Assembly: GCA_039931165.1 (NCBI GenBank)
Contig: JBDTSL010000003.1
Location: 10,349 to 74,348, forward strand
Source: Candidatus Doudnabacteria bacterium
Lineage (GTDB): Bacteria > Patescibacteriota > Doudnabacteria > UBA920 > O2-02-FULL-48-8
Length of the DNA: 64,000 bases
Direction of reading: 5' to 3'
A model generated the notes under the pieces. The model was not told the DNA's origin. It did no database searches and saw nothing but the letters and a program-made list of their open reading frames with translations. Shown in pieces: positions 11,059 through 42,932 of this stretch. A program made the position numbers and the translations under genes. How positions within the stretch are numbered: the stretch's first letter is position 1; each line of letters opens with the position of its first letter.

Positions 11059-12738
11059 ATGAATCCAAGCATTTTTCAGAACATACGGAACATTGACCTC
11101 TTGTCGGTCGGAATTGCCACTGCTTCTATTGGGATAATGGGTTTTATCATTTATTTTAATGATAAAAAGAACAGCATCAATCAGACTTTTCTGGCCCTGT
11201 CCGTGATGGGCATTTTTTGGAGTGCTTTTAATTATTTAAGTTATCAATTTTACGACCCGGTTGTGGTAATTTGGCTGATCCGAATTGCCGTCTTTTTTGC
11301 AGTGTGGTTTTCTTTTTCTATTTTTAGGTTATTTTATATTTTTCCAAATAAAAGCCCAGAATTTGTAAAGGCATATTATTACTTATTTATTCCGATAACA
11401 GTTGTTTCGTCACTGCTAAACTTAACCCCATTGGTGTTTACCCGAGTGACTGCATTTACTGAGGGGCGGGTGTCGGAAGTGGCCAACGGACCTGCTATTG
11501 CTTTGTTTGGAATCGTTGTATTCGGGTTGGTCGGATGTGGCATATATTTGTTAGTTAAAAAAATCAGGCGGACTAAAGGAGTTGAAAGAAAGCAACTCGA
11601 CTTAATATTTTTCGGAATAACCATTACTTGTTTATTGCTGATAATTTTCAATTTTATTTTACCGGCCTTTTTAAACAATGCCGCTTATATTTCTTTTGGC
11701 GCGGTATTTTTGTTTCCTTTCATAGCTCTTACCGCTTACTCTATAATTAAACTGCATTTGTTTGATGTAAAAGTGTTTGCGACCGAAGTATTAACTTTTG
11801 TGCTCTCAATAGTTAATTTAATTGAGATTGTGACCGCAAAAGATACCCTGACGTTTGTTTTTCGTCTATCTATGTTCGCATTAGTATTAGGTTTTGGAAT
11901 TTTGCTGATAAGGAGCGTGCAAAAGGAAGTAGAGCTTAGGCGTCAACTGCAAATCTTAGACAAAGAACTTGAGGCCGCGAATGCGCAGCTGAAGATTTTG
12001 GACCAGGCCAGGGCCGAGTTTATCACTATCGCGTCCCATCAGCTTCGCACGCCGCCGGCCACTATCAAGTGGTATTTGGCCTCCATTCTGGACGGGGATT
12101 ATGGCAAGATGGACGCGGCAGTGCATGAACAGCTTCGTAAAACCGCTTCAACCAATGGTTCAATGATCTCGCTGATCGACGATCTGCTGAATGTTTCTAG
12201 GATTGAGCGGGGCAAGATGGAATTTATTTTCCAGCCCACGGATATGGCGGAGATCACCCAGATCACGGTTGACCAGCTCCTGCCGCAGGCGGAAATGAGA
12301 AAACTGCAGTTGATCTACGAAAAGCCGAAAGTACCCCTGCCGATAATCAACGCCGATAAAGAAAAACTGCGCCAGGTTATCAATAATTTGATTGATAATG
12401 CTATTAAATATACCCCGAAAGGTTCGATCACGGTCCAGCTCAGCCAGACCAAGGATGACATCATGGTGAAAGTCACCGATACGGGCAAAGGAGTAGATAA
12501 GGAACATCTCAAAAACGTATTTATAAAATTCGAACGCGGTAAAATTCCCGCTAAAAACTCCACCGGTCTGGGACTGGGGCTGTATGTGGCCAAAGTCATA
12601 GTCGAACAGCATAAAGGCAAGATCTGGGTCGAGTCGCCGGGCGTGGGTAAAGGCTCGAGCTTTATTTTCACCGTGCCGATCAAAGGCGAGGTCAACACCA
12701 CGGAATTCGACCTGACCAAGACCCAAACACCGGCTTGA
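11059..12738 (+). CDS. Sensor histidine kinase with polytopic (~7 TM) N-terminal sensor domain
   Basis: H-box 'ITIASHQLRTPPATIKWY', N-box 'NNLIDNAIKYT' and G-boxes 'DTGKGV' and 'GLGLYVAKVIVEQHKG'. Starts 1 nt after the methyltransferase stop. Confidence 0.85.
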   Translation: MNPSIFQNIRNIDLLSVGIATASIGIMGFIIYFNDKKNSINQTFLALSVMGIFWSAFNYLSYQFYDPVVVIWLIRIAVFFAVWFSFSIFRLFYIFPNKSPEFVKAYYYLFIPITVVSSLLNLTPLVFTRVTAFTEGRVSEVANGPAIALFGIVVFGLVGCGIYLLVKKIRRTKGVERKQLDLIFFGITITCLLLIIFNFILPAFLNNAAYISFGAVFLFPFIALTAYSIIKLHLFDVKVFATEVLTFVLSIVNLIEIVTAKDTLTFVFRLSMFALVLGFGILLIRSVQKEVELRRQLQILDKELEAANAQLKILDQARAEFITIASHQLRTPPATIKWYLASILDGDYGKMDAAVHEQLRKTASTNGSMISLIDDLLNVSRIERGKMEFIFQPTDMAEITQITVDQLLPQAEMRKLQLIYEKPKVPLPIINADKEKLRQVINNLIDNAIKYTPKGSITVQLSQTKDDIMVKVTDTGKGVDKEHLKNVFIKFERGKIPAKNSTGLGLGLYVAKVIVEQHKGKIWVESPGVGKGSSFIFTVPIKGEVNTTEFDLTKTQTPA

Positions 12739-12794
12739 AACGTATCTAGAGATAACAAAAAAACCTCGACATTAGTCGGGATTTTTTTAAATAT

Positions 12795-12886
12795 CCATAC
12801 TGTCAGTATATTCCAACTACTTGCATAAAACGCAAGCCAGGGCTCAATATAACGCTGTCAAGTATTGACAACAATCGACCCAATGC
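12795..12886. promoter_or_regulatory. Repeated promoter/operator module, copy R3
   Basis: TACTGTCAGTA (12798-12808, TACT-N3-AGTA), the conserved AACGCAAGCCAGGGCTCAATAT block and the palindrome TGTCAAGTATTGACA (12856-12870). Confidence 0.6.
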
Positions 12887-12961
12887 TTACACTTCATAAT
12901 GATTTGGTCGGCAATTCCGCAGGCCGCAATCACTCGTAAGCAACAATCGAAAAGAGGAATC

Positions 12962-13441
12962 ATGGAAATTCCGTCGACATTGGAAAACAAGTTGGCGAAT
13001 CTCGATCTCGAGCCGATCAAGGTCAAGCTCATGGATGCCGAAGAAGGGCCGGGTTGGTCGCTCAAGATGTGCGACTCGGTGGAGGTGCTTTACAAGCGCT
13101 TCCTGCTGCTCAACGCAACACATCCGCACATCGTTCCGACGCGAGAGATTGACCAGTTCTGGCACATGCACATTCTCGACACTTACAAGTACACCCAGGA
13201 CTGCGAAGACCTGTTCGGCCACTACTTACATCACTTCCCGTACTTTGGTATGCGGGGTGCCAGTGATGCCAGCGATTTGAAGCTGGCATTTGCCAATACG
13301 CTGGCTCTGTACGCTGCCAAGTACGGCGAACCGCTTGAAACGGCAGCGGCGATGTGCAACTGCTGTGACGATGGCGGCGGAGTGACACAGGGTGATCTCA
13401 AGGCCATTCGACCGACAATCGACCGATCACTCGCGATGTGA
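12962..13441 (+). CDS. DUF1399 / GRDP-like protein, paralogue 2 (GC-rich)
   Basis: 'YKRFLLLNATHPHIVPTREIDQFWHMHILDTYKYTQDC'. The RBS AAGAGGA precedes the ATG at 12962, so the longer 12899 start is unlikely. Confidence 0.55.
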   Translation: MEIPSTLENKLANLDLEPIKVKLMDAEEGPGWSLKMCDSVEVLYKRFLLLNATHPHIVPTREIDQFWHMHILDTYKYTQDCEDLFGHYLHHFPYFGMRGASDASDLKLAFANTLALYAAKYGEPLETAAAMCNCCDDGGGVTQGDLKAIRPTIDRSLAM

Positions 13442-13452
13442 AGGCTCATACA

Positions 13453-13487
13453 GGGGGATAAGTTGCTTTCCCCCTCTTTTTTTAAAT
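13453..13487 (+). terminator. Rho-independent terminator
   Basis: GGGGGA-taagttgctt-TCCCCC followed by TCTTTTTTTT. Confidence 0.6.
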
Positions 13488-13496
13488 CTATTAGAT

Positions 13497-14168
13497 ATGA
13501 TCACATTCTATACTAAATTAGCGAATTTATATGATAAAACCTATCTGAAAAAAGATTATCAGAAAGAAGTTTTATATTTGAAAAAATTTATTAAAGGTTC
13601 AGTTTTGGATGTTGGTTGTGGAACAGGTCGACATTTACAATATTTGAAAGATCACATACGAATTGGATTAGATAAAAGTTTGCAATTAATTAAACTTGCG
13701 AAACAAAATAATCCAGGGATTAAGTTTTTGCAAGGGGACATTGTTAATTTTAAAATTAATCAGAAATTTGATACGATTATCAGTTTGTTTACAGTGATTG
13801 CTTACCTAAATTCTAAGCAACTTGAGGAAGCTATTAATAATTTAGTCAGTCATTTGAACTCTAAAGGAATTTTAATTTTAGAACCTTTCGCTGAACCAAA
13901 AACCTTGTCATTGAAACCTTGGTTTAATTCCTATAATTCACCAACTTTAAAATTTACTCGATATGTGACTCTCAAAAAAATTAGAAATATAGCTAAACTA
14001 AATATTCAATGGTGGGTTAATGGAAATACTATTAAAGAAGTTCAACATTTATCATTATTTAAGCATAAACATATCATCAAATTATTAAATAAATATTGTG
14101 TTAAAGTCGAGTATTTGCCACCAACGCATTTATTTAGATACGGACTATTTGTGGCTAGAATTTCTTGA
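13497..14168 (+). CDS. Class I SAM-dependent methyltransferase (AT-rich)
   Basis: Motif I 'VLDVGCGTGRH' and motif II 'RIGLDKS'. The internal start 'MITFYTKL' was chosen because the longer ORF overlaps the upstream gene in a different frame. Confidence 0.7.
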   Translation: MITFYTKLANLYDKTYLKKDYQKEVLYLKKFIKGSVLDVGCGTGRHLQYLKDHIRIGLDKSLQLIKLAKQNNPGIKFLQGDIVNFKINQKFDTIISLFTVIAYLNSKQLEEAINNLVSHLNSKGILILEPFAEPKTLSLKPWFNSYNSPTLKFTRYVTLKKIRNIAKLNIQWWVNGNTIKEVQHLSLFKHKHIIKLLNKYCVKVEYLPPTHLFRYGLFVARIS

Positions 14169-14239
14169 ATATAAAAATAGTTAAGGGAACTATATACCTA
14201 AATCGGCTGGATCGCTTCACAAAAATATCTTTTCTTGAA

Positions 14240-14345
14240 TCGAACAGCGTAAAGGCAAGATCTGGGTCGAGTCGAAAGGGGAGGTAAAGGCGAGGTCAAC
14301 ACCACGGAATTCGACCTGACCAAGACCCAAACACCGGCTTGAAAT
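14240..14345 (+). pseudogene. Truncated duplicate of the 3' end of the histidine-kinase gene (direct repeat of 12602-12740 with a 35-bp internal deletion)
   Basis: 'CGAACAGCGTAAAGGCAAGATCTGGGTCGAGTCG' and 'AAAGGCGAGGTCAACACCACGGAATTCGACCTGACCAAGACCCAAACACCGGCTTGAAA' recur at 12602-12740. Confidence 0.8.
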
Positions 14346-14411
14346 ATATCGCCCGATTTGTTAGAATTGGTTAGCGTTCGGGCGTAGCTCAGCGGTAGAG
14401 CAGCTGACTGT

Positions 14412-14981
14412 GAACAAGTTCTTAAAGGCGGCATAAAGGTCTTATTTTATGCCAAAAGAGAAGAGAACATATTCCGACCGTTCTCAATACATTATCCAGG
14501 CGGTTACCAAGAGACGTAAAAAGCTCAGGGAAATGGCTAGGGTGTATAAAGGCGGTAAATGTATGATCTGTGGTTACGATCGCTGTCTAGGAGCGCTTGA
14601 TTTTCACCACATTGATCCTTCCAAGAAAAAGTTTGGAATATCCATGAACGGATTAACCAAATCTTGGGATAAGATCAAAGGCGAACTGGATAAGTGCATC
14701 TTAATTTGCGCGAATTGCCACAGAGAAATCCATGCAGGAATTACGCAGCTTCCTGGGGAAACCCAGGTTGAAAAACGAGGTGAACTCGGGGAAGCCCTGC
14801 ACCAGTAATCGGTACAGGGTAATCCCGAGCCAAGCTCCGACTTTTCAGTCGGAGAAGGTGTAGAGACTATCCCGCAAGGGAGTACTCCCAGCCCTTTCTT
14901 CGAAAGTGCTGGGCGGAAGCGCCTCGGACCCCTAATAGGGTTATGATATAGTCCATACTAAAGGCGACTTTAGATTAAATG
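14412..14981 (+). ncRNA. Group I self-splicing intron (570 nt) carrying an HNH endonuclease ORF
   Basis: Conserved core elements: R-like 'GAGACTA' (14863-14869) and S-like 'GATATAGTCC' (14944-14953), which form P7 (GACTA/TAGTC). Terminal G (omegaG) at 14981. Confidence 0.65.
14449..14808 (+). CDS. HNH homing endonuclease encoded within the group I intron
   Basis: 'CMICGYDRCLGALDFHHIDP...CILICANCHREIH' gives CxxC ... HH ... CxxCH, the HNH zinc-finger and catalytic motif. Confidence 0.8.
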   Translation: MPKEKRTYSDRSQYIIQAVTKRRKKLREMARVYKGGKCMICGYDRCLGALDFHHIDPSKKKFGISMNGLTKSWDKIKGELDKCILICANCHREIHAGITQLPGETQVEKRGELGEALHQ

Positions 14982-15025
14982 TAATCAGCGGGTCGCTGGT
15001 TCGAATCCAGCCGCCCGAGCCAAAT

Positions 15026-15056
15026 AAAAAAACCTGACTTCTGTCGGGTTTTTTTA
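15026..15056. terminator. Bidirectional terminator after the tRNA
   Basis: AAAAAAACCTGAC-ttct-GTCGGGTTTTTTT (one G-U pair in the stem). Confidence 0.7.
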
Positions 15057-15182
15057 TTTGTTTGACAGGCTGGATTCGAAGGGCAGAAGTGAGGCAAGAC
15101 CCCAGTCGCAGCCGAACGTCGACGGAAGCGAGGGCTCGCAGCTTCCGTCGCTGCCCCGGACATGAGCGCATCAGCGCGAATC

Positions 15183-15240
15183 CGAATCCAGCCGCCCGAG
15201 CCAAAAGAAAGAAACTGACTTCTGTCAGTTTCTTTCTTTT
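15183..15240 (+). repeat. Second copy of the tRNA 3' end (CGAATCCAGCCGCCCGAGCCAAA) plus a second terminator (AAAGAAAGAAACTGAC-ttct-GTCAGTTTCTTTCTTT): att-like scar
   Basis: A 21-nt exact repeat of 15002-15022. Both terminators share the core CTGACTTCTGTC. Inverted T-arm fragments GGCTGGATTCGAAGGG (15068-15082) and GGCGGATTCGAAGGG (15262-15273) follow each unit. Confidence 0.6.
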
Positions 15241-15284
15241 CGATTCCCGGCGGCGGATTCGAAGGGTTGAAGTCATACAATTAA

Positions 15285-42548: not shown

Positions 42549-42932
42549 TGGTGGAGCTGGGGAGAATTGCACTCCCGTCCAAGAGATTTCAATAAATATT
42601 TCTACAAGTTTAGACCGCTTGAATTGTTACCCAAAACCATAGAAGCGGACTAAAGCGGTTTTGGCTAAGCCCTTAGTGTCCTTTGTCAGTCGGGCGTCAG
42701 ACAAAGTGAGTCCGAATAATATAACACCCGTATTCCACGCACAGACTTTGCGGAGCGGATGGGTTATCGCTTATTAAGCAACAGCCATAGCCGGAGAGAA
42801 CGCAAAAGCATTCTTTACGGTTTTTACCAATGAATTGGCATTTATGATTTGCCTTATCTTTTTAACCGAGAGATTAGGCTAATCGGACTTGCAATATTTA
42901 TCAAAGAACTCTTGTCGAATCTGAGCAGCCCC
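42549..42932 (-). ncRNA. ssrA: tmRNA (ssrA), 384 nt, immediately downstream of smpB
   Basis: 5' end GGGGCUGCUCAGAUUCGACAAG. 3' end GGACGGGAGUGCAAUUCUCCCCAGCUCCACCA. The acceptor stem has the G3-U70 Ala identity pair. An internal tag-like ORF reads ...AFAFSPAMAVA followed by TAA TAA. Confidence 0.85.

What the first reader, a model, noticed from the sequence alone, without database searches (positions are those of the whole stretch)
14378..15022. tRNA-Asn(GUU) split by a group I intron encoding an HNH homing endonuclease
At 14378-14411 there is a tRNA 5' half: acceptor stem, D-arm, 5' anticodon stem and CUGU. About 570 nt downstream (14982-15022) lies the matching 3' half: UAA, 3' anticodon stem, variable loop, T-arm, complementary acceptor strand and CCA. 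Joined, they give a canonical 75-nt tRNA with anticodon loop CUGUUAA.

The intervening sequence has group I hallmarks. The 5' exon ends in U and the intron ends in G. R-like GAGACUA and S-like GAUAUAGUCC elements form P7. A 119-aa HNH endonuclease ORF lies upstream of the catalytic core.

The ORF track alone suggested an HNH gene next to a tRNA fragment. The insertion site, after nucleotide 35 of the anticodon, differs from the classic cyanobacterial tRNA-Leu(UAA) and tRNA-fMet group I intron sites.
Basis: partly seen in the sequence, partly recalled or inferred. Interest (0 to 1): 0.8.

Follow-up and report, generated by a model that had tools for sequence, protein, structure and literature searches.

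The report
Intron-split tRNA-Asn gene with HNH endonuclease
The asparagine tRNA gene of this Patescibacteria (Doudnabacteria-like) genome is interrupted in its anticodon by a self-splicing group I intron that carries its own HNH homing-endonuclease gene; the reading is correct, but this class of intron was described in 2020-2026, so this is a further example, not a discovery.

Summary
Exons 14378-14411 and 14982-15022 join into a canonical 75-nt tRNA-Asn(GUU). The 570-nt insert (14412-14981) lies between anticodon nucleotides 35 and 36, follows a U and ends in G.

The insert scores 57.6 bits on Rfam RF00028 (gathering score 50). Comparison with 12 related introns supports P1-P10: 88.7% of cells pair, against 33-43% when the 3' partners are slid by 1-3 columns, and 24 pairs change on both sides. 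P7.1 and P7.2, typical of subgroup IA, are present.

The 119-aa HNH ORF (14449-14808) is intact and under purifying selection (dN/dS 0.04-0.14). It lies in the P1 loop and reads through the P1 3' strand, P2, P3, P4 and into P5.

The class is already published. Williams (2020 preprint) introduced the tFind tool, and Nakagawa et al. cite it for a tRNA-Asn intron class. Nakagawa et al. (mSystems 2026) describe tRNA-Asn(GUU) 35/36 IA introns in Patescibacteria, four with HNH genes, and showed in vitro splicing of an ORF-less relative.

Modest additions come from 93 related loci. Every HNH homolog with enough flanking sequence lies in or beside a tRNA-Asn gene, and nine are free-standing. Most intron-borne copies carry an extended -10-like motif that pairs with the start codon.

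Interest is low to moderate.

The parts
14339..14367 (+). Promoter-like site for the tRNA gene: TTGAAA, 17-nt spacer, TAGAAT with a TG before the -10. It ends about 10 nt before the tRNA 5' end.
   Evidence: Consensus scan, 10 of 12 matches. This is a consensus match only; function is inferred.
14378..14411 (+). tRNA-Asn 5' exon: acceptor 5' strand, D arm, anticodon stem 5' strand and C32 U33 G34 U35. Its last four bases, CUGU (14408-14411), are the 5' strand of P1.
14412..14981 (+). Group I intron, 570 nt, inserted between anticodon positions 35 and 36. It is IA-like, with P7.1 and P7.2 present.
   Evidence: RF00028 at 57.6 bits, above the gathering score of 50. ARAGORN intron mode. Covariation. 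67% identity to the in-vitro-validated intron of GCA_016700035.1.
14430..14453 (+). 9-bp hairpin GGCAUAAAG / UUUUAUGCC that pairs the ORF start codon (14449-14451). Its 5' strand (CGGCATAAA, from 14429) is a degenerate copy of the extended -10-like motif TGGTATAAT/TGGTATACT seen in relatives.
   Evidence: Fold of 14412-14470: -14.2 kcal/mol, z -3.8. Motif and pairing in relatives. The regulatory role is inferred.
14449..14808 (+). HNH homing-endonuclease ORF, 119 aa including stop. It lies in the P1 loop (L1) and runs through the P1 3' strand, P2, P3, P4 and into P5.
   Evidence: dN/dS 0.04-0.14 against close relatives.
14740..14743 (+). P10 5' strand AUUA, complementary to the first four bases of the 3' exon (UAAU, 14982-14985).
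   Evidence: Sequence. Only 59% of cells pair across relatives, so P10 is weak and variable.
14745..14748 (+). Internal guide sequence GCAG, the 3' strand of P1. It pairs with exon CUGU and makes the U35-G wobble at the 5' splice site.
   Evidence: GCAGC is invariant in all 13 aligned introns, with or without the ORF. It lies directly 5' of P2.
14752..14767 (+). P2 hairpin: CCUGGG, GAAA loop, CCCAGG.
   Evidence: All 6 pairs change on both sides among relatives; 98.7% of cells pair.
14776..14829 (+). Four elements lie here. P3 5' strand: CGAGGUG, 14776-14782. P4: CUCGGG 14785-14790 with CCCGAG 14824-14829. P5: GCCCUG 14794-14799 with CAGGGU 14815-14820.
   Evidence: P4 has 5 of 6 pairs with changes on both sides, 97.4% paired. 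P3 is 94.6% paired. P5 is 70.8% paired. RF00028 alignment.
14835..14854 (+). P6 hairpin: CUCCGACU, UUUC loop, AGUCGGAG.
   Evidence: Sequence and RF00028 alignment. Lengths vary among relatives, so pairs were not counted.
14865..14869 (+).
   Evidence: Invariant in 13 introns and pairs with 14949-14953.
14870..14913 (+). P7.1 (UCCC-GCAA-GGGA, 14870-14881) and P7.2 (CCCAGC 14887-14892 with GCUGGG 14908-14913). These extra helices are typical of subgroup IA.
   Evidence: The region appears as a 48-nt insertion relative to RF00028. P7.1 has 3 of 4 pairs with changes on both sides. P7.2 is read from the window sequence only.
14920..14926 (+). P3 3' strand CGCCUCG.
14928..14941 (+). P8 hairpin: ACCC, loop, GGGU.
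   Evidence: RF00028 alignment. Not counted across relatives because lengths vary.
14949..14953 (+).
   Evidence: Invariant.
14958..14973 (+). P9 hairpin: CUAAAG, GCGA loop, CUUUAG.
   Evidence: 5 of 6 pairs change on both sides.
14981..14981 (+). Terminal guanosine (omega-G) of the intron.
   Evidence: A G precedes UAA in all 14 genome loci examined and in 60 metagenome loci.
14982..15022 (+). tRNA-Asn 3' exon: U36 A37 A38, anticodon stem 3' strand, variable loop, T arm, acceptor 3' strand, discriminator G and encoded CCA.
15032..15056 (+). Terminator-like hairpin ACCUGAC-UUCU-GUCGGGU followed by a T run.
   Evidence: Read from the sequence. Not called by the strict scan.

Best explanation
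This is the tRNA-Asn(GUU) gene of a Patescibacteria (Doudnabacteria-like) genome. It is interrupted between anticodon nucleotides U35 and U36 by a mobile, self-splicing, IA-type group I intron.

Splicing (inferred). The gene is transcribed as one precursor from a promoter-like site just upstream. The intron folds so that its internal guide GCAG (14745-14748) pairs with exon CUGU. This forms P1 with a U35-G wobble at the 5' splice site. An exogenous guanosine bound at P7 attacks after U35. The terminal G14981 then takes the same site, and the exons are ligated to give a 75-nt tRNA. None of this has been shown for this locus. Precise splicing has been shown in vitro for a homolog.

Homing endonuclease (inferred). 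The P1 loop carries an intact 119-aa zinc-finger HNH endonuclease gene. Its product most likely cuts or nicks intron-less tRNA-Asn genes near the anticodon, so that repair copies the intron in (homing). Because the ORF's 3' end overlaps P1', P2, P3, P4 and P5, ribosomes translating it and ribozyme folding should exclude each other.

Expression control (inferred). The start codon is held in a 9-bp hairpin, which should keep translation from the precursor low. In most relatives the 5' strand of that hairpin is an extended -10-like motif 3-10 nt before the ATG. That suggests a separate, near-leaderless transcript. In the window this motif is degenerate.
For: tRNA. The joined exons give a canonical tRNA-Asn(GUU) with discriminator G and CCA.

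Intron.
- RF00028 scores 57.6 bits, above the gathering score of 50.
- On 13 related introns, 88.7% of cells pair, against 33-43% when the 3' partners are slid by 1-3 columns. 24 pairs change on both sides, and none of 500 shuffles reaches the covariation score. P2, P4 and P9 covary strongly. P1 and P7 are invariant.
- U at -1 and a terminal G are conserved in 14 genome loci and 60 metagenome loci.
- The ribozyme part, from the guide sequence to the terminal G, is 67% identical to the GCA_016700035.1 intron that PMC13011429 showed to splice precisely at 35/36 in vitro.
- The published HNH-bearing WWE3 intron has a closely matching guide-P2-J2/3 stretch.

HNH ORF.
- More than 1000 homolog clusters are 64-87% identical, mostly from Patescibacteria.
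- All invariant CxxC, HH and CxNCH residues are present.
- It resembles the HNH domain of a group II intron maturase and McrA.
- dN/dS is 0.04-0.14.
- In all 79 homolog loci with enough flank, the gene is inside or beside a tRNA-Asn(GUU) gene.

Expression. The hairpin over the AUG folds at -14.2 kcal/mol, z -3.8. The extended -10-like motif occurs in 36 of 69 intron-borne ORFs and pairs with the start codon region.
Against: Neither splicing nor endonuclease activity has been tested for this sequence.

- The Pfam HNH score (20.5 bits) is just below the curated cut-off of 21.4.
- P1 has only 4 base pairs here because A31 faces C14749. P10 is weak (4 A-U pairs) and poorly conserved, with 59% of cells paired.
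- P1 and P7 never vary, so covariation says nothing about them.
- Whether this is the only tRNA-Asn gene in the genome cannot be told from a 64-kb window.
- The promoter and hairpin roles rest on consensus matches and predicted folding. The -10/ATG inverted repeat could instead be a DNA binding site.
- The window's own -10-like motif is degenerate (CGGCATAAA), so how its HNH gene is expressed is unclear.
Confidence: 0.9

Rival explanations
1. The gene is a tRNA-Thr(UGU) with the intron at 33/34: the same exons, with both splice sites shifted two bases upstream.
For: ARAGORN gives this reading (Thr tgt/cgt, intron at 33/34) for 8 of the 17 genome-collection and Doudnabacteria loci. PMC13011429 reports the same miscalls by ARAGORN and tFind.
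Against: - In the window ARAGORN itself calls Asn(gtt) at position 35.
- The shifted reading makes the intron end in A (…UUAAA|UGUAA), not G.
- The invariant guide GCAG pairs with CUGU and puts the G-U wobble at U35. U33 pairs with A.
- The discriminator is G, which fits bacterial tRNA-Asn (own knowledge).
- Sequencing of spliced products of a homolog confirmed 35/36.
Confidence: 0.02
2. The intron is a decaying or immobile relic. It still splices, so the tRNA works. The HNH gene, however, is no longer an active homing endonuclease: it is not expressed, or has been co-opted, for example as a splicing helper.
For: The window and its closest relatives (L001, L018, L019) have lost the extended -10 consensus. 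The AUG is buried in a 9-bp hairpin. [quoted passage not shown]
Against: - The ORF is full length with all catalytic and zinc ligands.
- dN/dS of 0.04-0.14, with synonymous sites near saturation, shows the protein is under selection.
- Sequence clusters of the same family number over a thousand, across many Patescibacteria lineages and some other phyla. That spread fits ongoing mobility.
- Selection alone cannot separate nuclease from maturase function.
Confidence: 0.15
3. The tRNA gene has been inactivated by insertion of a mobile element that does not splice. It is a pseudogene, and a functional tRNA-Asn lies elsewhere.
For: Only 64 kb of the genome is visible. No splicing data exist for this locus.
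Against: - Both exons are intact and fold perfectly.
- All ribozyme helices are maintained by compensatory changes across relatives.
- The same interrupted arrangement is kept in at least 70 independent loci.
- PMC13011429 found such genes to be the sole tRNA-Asn copy in complete genomes.
Confidence: 0.03

Closest known systems
Group I introns at position 35/36 of tRNA-Asn(GUU) in Patescibacteria (Nakagawa et al., mSystems 2026, PMC13011429; bioRxiv 10.1101/2025.07.03.662931). That paper cites the tFind work (Williams 2020, bioRxiv 10.1101/2020.01.27.920355) for a class 'Asn.4Ug'.
   Same: - Host gene, anticodon and insertion site are the same, with U at -1 and a terminal G.
- The architecture is IA-type, and some members carry an HNH (PF01844) gene.
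- The host phylum is the same.
- Standard tRNA finders and filtered Rfam scans miss these genes.
- The window's ribozyme part is 67% identical to their experimentally spliced intron. Its guide-P2-J2/3 stretch closely matches that of their HNH-bearing WWE3 intron.
   Different: - This locus is from a Doudnabacteria-like genome. The one Doudnabacteria genome I found in their tables has Phe and Tyr introns; its Asn gene was not checked, and the stored supplement is truncated.
- The spliced member lacked an ORF.
- The paper does not discuss where the ORF sits in the fold, its overlap with the core, its expression signals or free-standing relatives ('free-standing' does not occur in its text).
- It infers limited mobility from 4 HNH-bearing cases, whereas the protein family has more than 1000 sequence clusters.
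Cyanobacterial tRNA-fMet group I intron encoding I-Ssp6803I, and the tRNA-Leu(UAA), tRNA-Arg(CCU) and tRNA-Ile(CAU) introns (Anabaena, Agrobacterium, Azoarcus)
   Same: They are self-splicing group I introns in the anticodon loop of a bacterial tRNA gene. P1 is formed with anticodon-loop bases. One of them (tRNA-fMet) carries a homing endonuclease that targets the tRNA gene (own knowledge; sites and endonuclease families as listed in PMC13011429).
   Different: Their sites are 33/34, 34/35 and 36/37, and PMC13011429 assigns 81% of bacterial tRNA introns to subgroup IC. Here the site is 35/36 and P7.1/P7.2 point to subgroup IA. The endonuclease is HNH, not PD-(D/E)XK or LAGLIDADG.
Phage IA group I introns with endonuclease genes (T4 td/I-TevI, SPO1 and SP82 DNA polymerase introns with HNH I-HmuI/I-HmuII)
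   Same: They are IA-type ribozymes with an ORF in a peripheral loop. The SPO1 and SP82 enzymes are HNH. In T4 td a hairpin hides the translation start in long transcripts and an internal promoter gives a translatable RNA. That is the logic proposed here. All of this is from own knowledge and was not tested.
   Different: The host genes are protein-coding and the enzymes are larger, with separate DNA-binding domains. Here the ORF is in L1 of a tRNA intron, encodes only ~105-120 aa, and overlaps five ribozyme helices.
Free-standing homing endonucleases next to their target gene ('collaborative homing', e.g. cyanophage psbA F-CphI; T4 seg/mob genes)
   Same: Nine homologs of the window's HNH are stand-alone genes. 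Eight end within 70 nt upstream of a tRNA-Asn gene or overlap its first 10 nt, and one lies 118 nt downstream. Five of these tRNA genes carry an ORF-less 35/36 intron.
   Different: In the window the gene is inside the intron. The comparison with the phage cases is from own knowledge. No cleavage data exist.

Membership tests
Group I intron (Rfam RF00028) | Covariance-model score at or above the curated gathering score | tested here: met
   57.6 bits against a gathering score of 50, E 8e-14, model positions 1-253. Missed by the filtered whole-window scan.
Group I intron (Rfam RF00028) | P1 formed by the 5' exon end and an internal guide, with a U-G wobble at the splice site | tested here: met
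   CUGU (14408-14411) pairs with GCAG (14745-14748). The U-G pair occurs in 13 of 13 introns. These pairs never vary, so support comes from conservation and position, not covariation.
Group I intron (Rfam RF00028) | Terminal guanosine at the 3' splice site | tested here: met
   G14981. A G precedes the 3' exon in all 74 related intron-bearing loci examined.
Group I intron (Rfam RF00028) | Conserved core helices P3-P9, with the P3/P7 pseudoknot, maintained by compensatory changes | tested here: met
   P2, P3, P4, P7.1 and P9 show changes on both sides. Overall 88.7% of cells pair, against 33-43% slid. P7 is invariant. P6 and P8 are read from the window only.
Group I intron (Rfam RF00028) | Guanosine-dependent self-splicing | not testable with these tools
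   Shown in vitro for a homolog 67% identical over the aligned ribozyme part (PMC13011429). Not shown for this sequence.
Subgroup IA | Extra helices P7.1 and P7.2 between the P7 5' strand and the P3 3' strand | tested here: met
   A 48-nt insert at that place forms two hairpins. P7.1 covaries. Three HNH-bearing relatives (L012-L014) lack these helices, so the trait is not universal in the clade. Subgroup covariance models were not available.
tRNA-Asn(GUU) | Cloverleaf with anticodon GUU after exon joining; discriminator G; 3' CCA | tested here: met
   ARAGORN calls tRNA-Asn(gtt), 75 nt, with seven perfect acceptor pairs.
tRNA-Asn(GUU) | Charged with asparagine; sole or functional copy in the genome | not testable with these tools
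   Only a 64-kb window is available, and no other tRNA is found in it.
HNH endonuclease (PF01844) | Profile match at or above Pfam's gathering score | tested here: not met
   20.5 bits against 21.4, E 5e-4. This is a near miss. Several close homologs (e.g. P0010, P0023) carry a precomputed PF01844 hit.
HNH endonuclease (PF01844) | Catalytic His and Asn plus the two CxxC zinc-binding pairs | tested here: met
   C38, C41, H53-H54, C87, N89, C90, H91 and H95 are present; all but C90 and H95 (at least 90% conserved) are invariant in 20 homologs. They align with the HNH domain of a group II maturase and McrA.
Homing endonuclease | Encoded within a peripheral loop of the intron it mobilises | tested here: met
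   The ORF lies in L1, between the 5' splice site and the internal guide.
Homing endonuclease | Cleaves the intron-less allele near the insertion site | not testable with these tools
   The only support is indirect: every homolog with enough flank is linked to a tRNA-Asn gene.
Patescibacteria tRNA-Asn 35/36 intron class (PMC13011429) | Insertion between positions 35 and 36 of tRNA-Asn(GUU) and sequence homology to published members | tested here: met
   Position. 67% identity to the GCA_016700035.1 intron, and a closely matching guide-P2-J2/3 stretch in GCA_000503835.1.
Patescibacteria tRNA-Asn 35/36 intron class (PMC13011429) | Host is a member of Patescibacteria | tested here: met
   The closest locus (82% nucleotide identity, with the same histidine-kinase gene upstream) is Candidatus Doudnabacteria GCA_019659045.1. 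The best protein hits are from Doudnabacteria. The window's own record was not found.

The most novel reading that the evidence does not exclude
The HNH gene may be a self-contained cassette that targets tRNA-Asn(GUU) genes independently of the intron. The cassette would be an extended -10 promoter, a near-leaderless ORF, and an inverted repeat joining the promoter to the start codon.

It occurs free-standing beside intron-less tRNA-Asn genes, including in an Actinomycetes MAG. It also occurs beside tRNA-Asn genes with ORF-less 35/36 introns (Saccharibacteria, Chloroflexota). Most often it sits inside the P1 loop.

These could be stages of endonuclease-intron partnership ('collaborative homing' followed by invasion of the intron). 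If so, HNH-driven spread of this tRNA intron would be far more common, and would cross phyla more often, than the published survey of complete genomes concluded.
Probability: 0.35. Interest if true: 0.5.

Novelty: new member of a known kind. Interest (0 to 1): 0.3.

Why it matters
For annotation: default tRNA finders and filtered Rfam scans both miss this gene. The genome would be scored as lacking tRNA-Asn. This repeats the point already made in PMC13011429.

For biology: the locus adds a Doudnabacteria-like example of an endonuclease-bearing tRNA intron. The comparison also gives three testable leads.
- The endonuclease family is tied to tRNA-Asn genes in every context seen, which predicts its target.
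- The ORF overlaps the ribozyme and its start codon is sequestered, which predicts competition between translation and splicing.
- Free-standing relatives exist beside intron-less and ORF-less-intron alleles, which bears on how endonuclease genes and introns come together.

None of these changes the classification of the finding itself.

Tried and rejected
- I first placed the P1 3' strand at GCA (14432-14434), just before the ORF, giving a 3-bp P1 with a small hairpin GAA-CAAG-UUC. ORF-less relatives (L015, L016) show the guide GCAGC directly 5' of P2. The same invariant GCAGC lies after the ORF in all HNH-bearing introns. The ORF is therefore in L1, and I rejected the first placement.
- The conserved TGGTATA motif was first taken as a possible guide sequence. 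I rejected that for the same reason and re-read it as an extended -10-like motif.
- The window's exact HNH protein is not on record in the contig index, so the source record was not identified. Taxonomy rests on relatives.
- A literature search for 'group I intron' plus 'tRNA-Asn' returned only organelle-genome papers. The relevant papers came from the search with 'candidate phyla radiation'.
- The Williams 2020 preprint text as held does not show its Table 1 (an image), so 'Asn.4Ug' is cited through PMC13011429.
- P6, P7.2 and P8 could not be counted across relatives because their lengths vary and MAFFT does not align them.
- No structure prediction or fold search was run for the HNH protein, because the motif evidence was sufficient.
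Full report
OBSERVATION

Bases 14378-14411 read UCGGGCG UA GCUC AGCGGUA GAGC A GCUGA CUGU. Bases 14982-15022 read UAA UCAGC GGGUC GCUGG UUCGAAU CCAGC CGCCCGA G CCA.

ARAGORN in default mode reports no tRNA in the whole 64-kb window, only a tmRNA at 42549-42932. On the joined exons it calls a 75-nt tRNA-Asn(gtt) with a perfect cloverleaf. In intron mode it calls the same gene with a 570-nt intron at position 35. The junction is unambiguous: the 5' exon ends in U14411 and the insert ends in G14981.

The Rfam scan of the whole window at gathering threshold also reports only the tmRNA. When 14300-15250 is searched alone, RF00028 (group I intron) matches 14706-14974 at 57.6 bits. The gathering score is 50 and the E-value 8e-14. 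The hit is genuine and passes the curated threshold. The fast filters lose it in the larger search.

THE RIBOZYME

I collected relatives through the HNH protein.
- Four Doudnabacteria loci.
- Thirteen loci from the species-representative genome collection.
- One close Doudnabacteria locus, L018, which is 82% identical at the nucleotide level to window 14356-15029.
- Eighty metagenome loci.

In every intron-bearing locus the 5' exon ends CUGU and the intron ends in G before UAA.

Two ORF-less relatives (L015, L016) show the simple architecture: exon GCUGU, a 5-6-nt loop, the guide GCAGC, then P2. The same invariant GCAGC lies directly 5' of P2 in all HNH-bearing introns, but after the ORF. The ORF is therefore an insertion in the P1 loop.

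Window elements:
- P1: CUGU 14408-14411 with GCAG 14745-14748. U35-G is the wobble pair at the splice site.
- P10: AUUA 14740-14743 with the 3' exon UAAU.
- P2: 14752-14767, with a GAAA loop.
- P3: 14776-14782 with 14920-14926.
- P4: 14785-14790 with 14824-14829.
- P5: 14794-14799 with 14815-14820.
- P6: 14835-14854.
- P7: 14865-14869 with 14949-14953.
- P7.1: 14870-14881.
- P7.2: 14887-14913.
- P8: 14928-14941.
- P9: 14958-14973.
- Terminal G: 14981.

I counted pairs on a 13-sequence alignment (A1; counts).
- 88.7% of cells form standard pairs, against 33-43% when the 3' partners are slid by 1-3 columns.
- 24 of 48 pairs change on both sides.
- None of 500 shuffles reaches the observed covariation score.
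- P2 has 6 of 6 pairs with changes on both sides, P4 has 5 of 6, and P9 has 5 of 6. P7.1 and P3 also carry compensatory changes.
- P1 and P7 are invariant, so they are neither supported nor contradicted by covariation.
- P10 is weak, with 59% of cells paired.

The two hairpins between P7 and P3' are the hallmark of subgroup IA. This agrees with the published classification of Patescibacteria tRNA introns. Three HNH-bearing relatives (L012-L014) lack these hairpins.

THE ORF

ORF 14449-14808 encodes 119 aa.
- Pfam HNH matches at 20.5 bits, just under the 21.4 cut-off.
- The PDB search aligns it with the HNH domain of a group II intron maturase and with McrA.
- The large protein database returns 1073 clusters at E <= 1e-3. 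The best 120 are 63-87% identical, and the named ones are Doudnabacteria, Uhrbacteria, Berkelbacteria and other Patescibacteria.
- In a 20-sequence alignment the window protein has all invariant residues: C38, C41, H53, H54, C87, N89, H91 and others.
- Over codons 1-96, upstream of the overlap with the ribozyme, dN/dS is 0.04 against L018 and 0.14 against L019. Synonymous sites are near saturation. The protein is under purifying selection.

The last ~65 nt of the ORF are also P1', P2, J2/3, P3, P4 and the 5' strand of P5. The conserved C-terminal 'ITQLPxExxVEK' of intron-borne copies is missing in the free-standing copies L015 and L017 that were aligned. That fits an RNA constraint on this stretch, not a protein constraint.

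LINKAGE TO tRNA-Asn

Of the 13 genome-collection loci, 10 have the gene inside a tRNA-Asn intron at 35/36 and 3 have it free-standing just upstream of a tRNA-Asn gene.

Of the 80 metagenome loci:
- 60 are inside a tRNA-Asn(GUU) intron at 35/36.
- 14 are cut by a contig end.
- 6 are free-standing next to a tRNA-Asn gene.

No locus with enough flank lacks the link.

The nine free-standing genes break down as follows.
- Eight keep the HNH motifs. L016 has lost the HH pair.
- Five sit beside tRNA-Asn genes that carry an ORF-less 35/36 intron.
- Four sit beside intron-less tRNA-Asn genes. One is in a 71% G+C Actinomycetes contig, where the HNH domain is fused to an N-terminal extension of ~120 residues whose nature was not tested.

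This pattern is what a homing endonuclease specific for the tRNA-Asn gene would produce. Cleavage itself is untested.

EXPRESSION SIGNALS

A promoter-like site (TTGAAA, 17 nt, TG-n-TAGAAT) ends about 10 nt before the tRNA 5' end. A hairpin plus T run follows the CCA.

Inside the intron, 36 of 69 relatives have TGnTAWAMT (typically TGGTATAAT or TGGTATACT) 3-10 nt before the conserved ATG. Seven more have only a -10-like hexamer, and some others have a Shine-Dalgarno-like AAGGAGG instead.

The motif and the start region form an inverted repeat, TGGTATA with TATGCCA. A few pairs change together, for example TGATATA with TATGTCA. As RNA this folds into an 8-12-bp hairpin that buries the AUG.

In the window and its nearest relatives the motif has decayed to CGGCATAAA, but the hairpin is kept and is even stronger. 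It spans 14430-14453, has 9 bp, and the 59-nt region that contains it (14412-14470) folds at -14.2 kcal/mol, z -3.8.

My reading is inference only. Precursor and excised-intron RNA would translate the endonuclease poorly. In many relatives a short internal transcript would lack the 5' strand of the hairpin and be translated without a leader. In the window lineage that route may be lost.

WHAT IS KNOWN

Nakagawa et al. (PMC13011429; preprint 10.1101/2025.07.03.662931) surveyed 95 complete Patescibacteria genomes.
- They found 15 tRNA-Asn(GUU) and 3 tRNA-Asp genes with group I introns at 35/36.
- They showed precise GTP-dependent splicing in vitro for one tRNA-Asn and one tRNA-Asp intron.
- They classified nearly all as subgroup IA.
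- They reported four tRNA-Asn introns with HNH (PF01844) genes.

They state that tFind (Williams 2020, 10.1101/2020.01.27.920355) had already listed such a site. That preprint expands the interrupted-tRNA classes from 4 to 21.

From their Table S3, the window's ribozyme part, from the guide sequence to the terminal G, is 67% identical to the spliced GCA_016700035.1 intron. It carries nearly the same guide-P2-J2/3 stretch as the HNH-bearing WWE3 intron. The window locus is thus a further member of a published class.

What I did not find in that paper:
- the position of the ORF in L1 and its overlap with the core;
- the promoter-like motif and the hairpin;
- the free-standing relatives;
- the size of the HNH family.

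The size of the family sits uneasily with the paper's inference that mobility is limited.

VERDICT

The mechanism (self-splicing, homing) is well supported by homology, covariation and a published experiment on a relative. It has not been demonstrated for this sequence. Novelty: new member of a known kind. Interest is low to moderate.

Noticed in passing
window 12602-14350: The last ~145 bp of the histidine-kinase gene (12602-12746) are repeated at 14240-14350 (97% identical, with a 34-bp gap), just upstream of the tRNA. Between the copies lie ~1.5 kb with two ORFs: 12899-13441, which has no Pfam hit, and 13392-14168, a SAM methyltransferase. In the Doudnabacteria relative L018 the kinase gene abuts the tRNA directly. 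This looks like an insertion with duplication of the flank.
   Followed up: partly
window 15002-15280: The last 21 nt of the tRNA plus a terminator (15002-15059) are repeated at 15183-15240 (84% identical). 15072-15097 is repeated at 15255-15280. In L018 the second terminator copy lies 1.1 kb downstream of the tRNA, after a 'GAGCCA' remnant. In L001-L004 a serine recombinase and a D5-type primase gene follow the tRNA. The 3' end of tRNA-Asn appears to be an integration site, and the window keeps a scar.
   Followed up: partly
L015 1980-2654; L016 2001-2692; L017 1596-2382; L075, L086, L088, L094, L096, L098: There are nine free-standing homologs of the intron HNH gene. Eight end within 70 nt upstream of a tRNA-Asn(GUU) gene or overlap its first 10 nt. 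The ninth lies 118 nt downstream. Five of the tRNA genes have an ORF-less 35/36 intron and four are intron-less. Hosts include Saccharibacteria, a Limnocylindria (Chloroflexota) MAG and a 71% G+C Actinomycetes MAG.
   Followed up: partly
L098 1469-1556: An 88-nt tRNA with a long variable arm (class II body, like Leu or Ser) carries a GUU anticodon. ARAGORN calls it tRNA-Asn. It lies in a cluster of seven tRNA genes, directly after a free-standing HNH homolog.
   Followed up: no
introns of L005-L013 and 60 metagenome loci; window 14429-14437: An extended -10-like motif TGnTAWAMT lies 3-10 nt upstream of the HNH start codon in 36 of 69 intron-borne copies, and also before several free-standing copies. 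It forms an inverted repeat with the start codon region (TGGTATA with TATGCCA). It is degenerate in the window and its closest relatives.
   Followed up: partly
L012, L013, L014: Three HNH-bearing tRNA-Asn introns have the same P1, P2, P7 and P9 sequences but lack P7.1 and P7.2: P3' follows P7 directly. The IA-type extra helices are therefore present or absent within one clade.
   Followed up: no
window 42549-42932 (-): A standard one-piece tmRNA (RF00023, 125 bits) with tag peptide ANSLVKTVKNAFAFSPAMAVA. ARAGORN finds no tRNA gene in the 64 kb in default mode.
   Followed up: no
window 14300-15250 versus the whole window: The RF00028 match exceeds the gathering score (57.6 against 50) but appears only when a short stretch is searched. 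The filtered whole-window scan drops it. Routine annotation would miss both the intron and the tRNA.
   Followed up: yes
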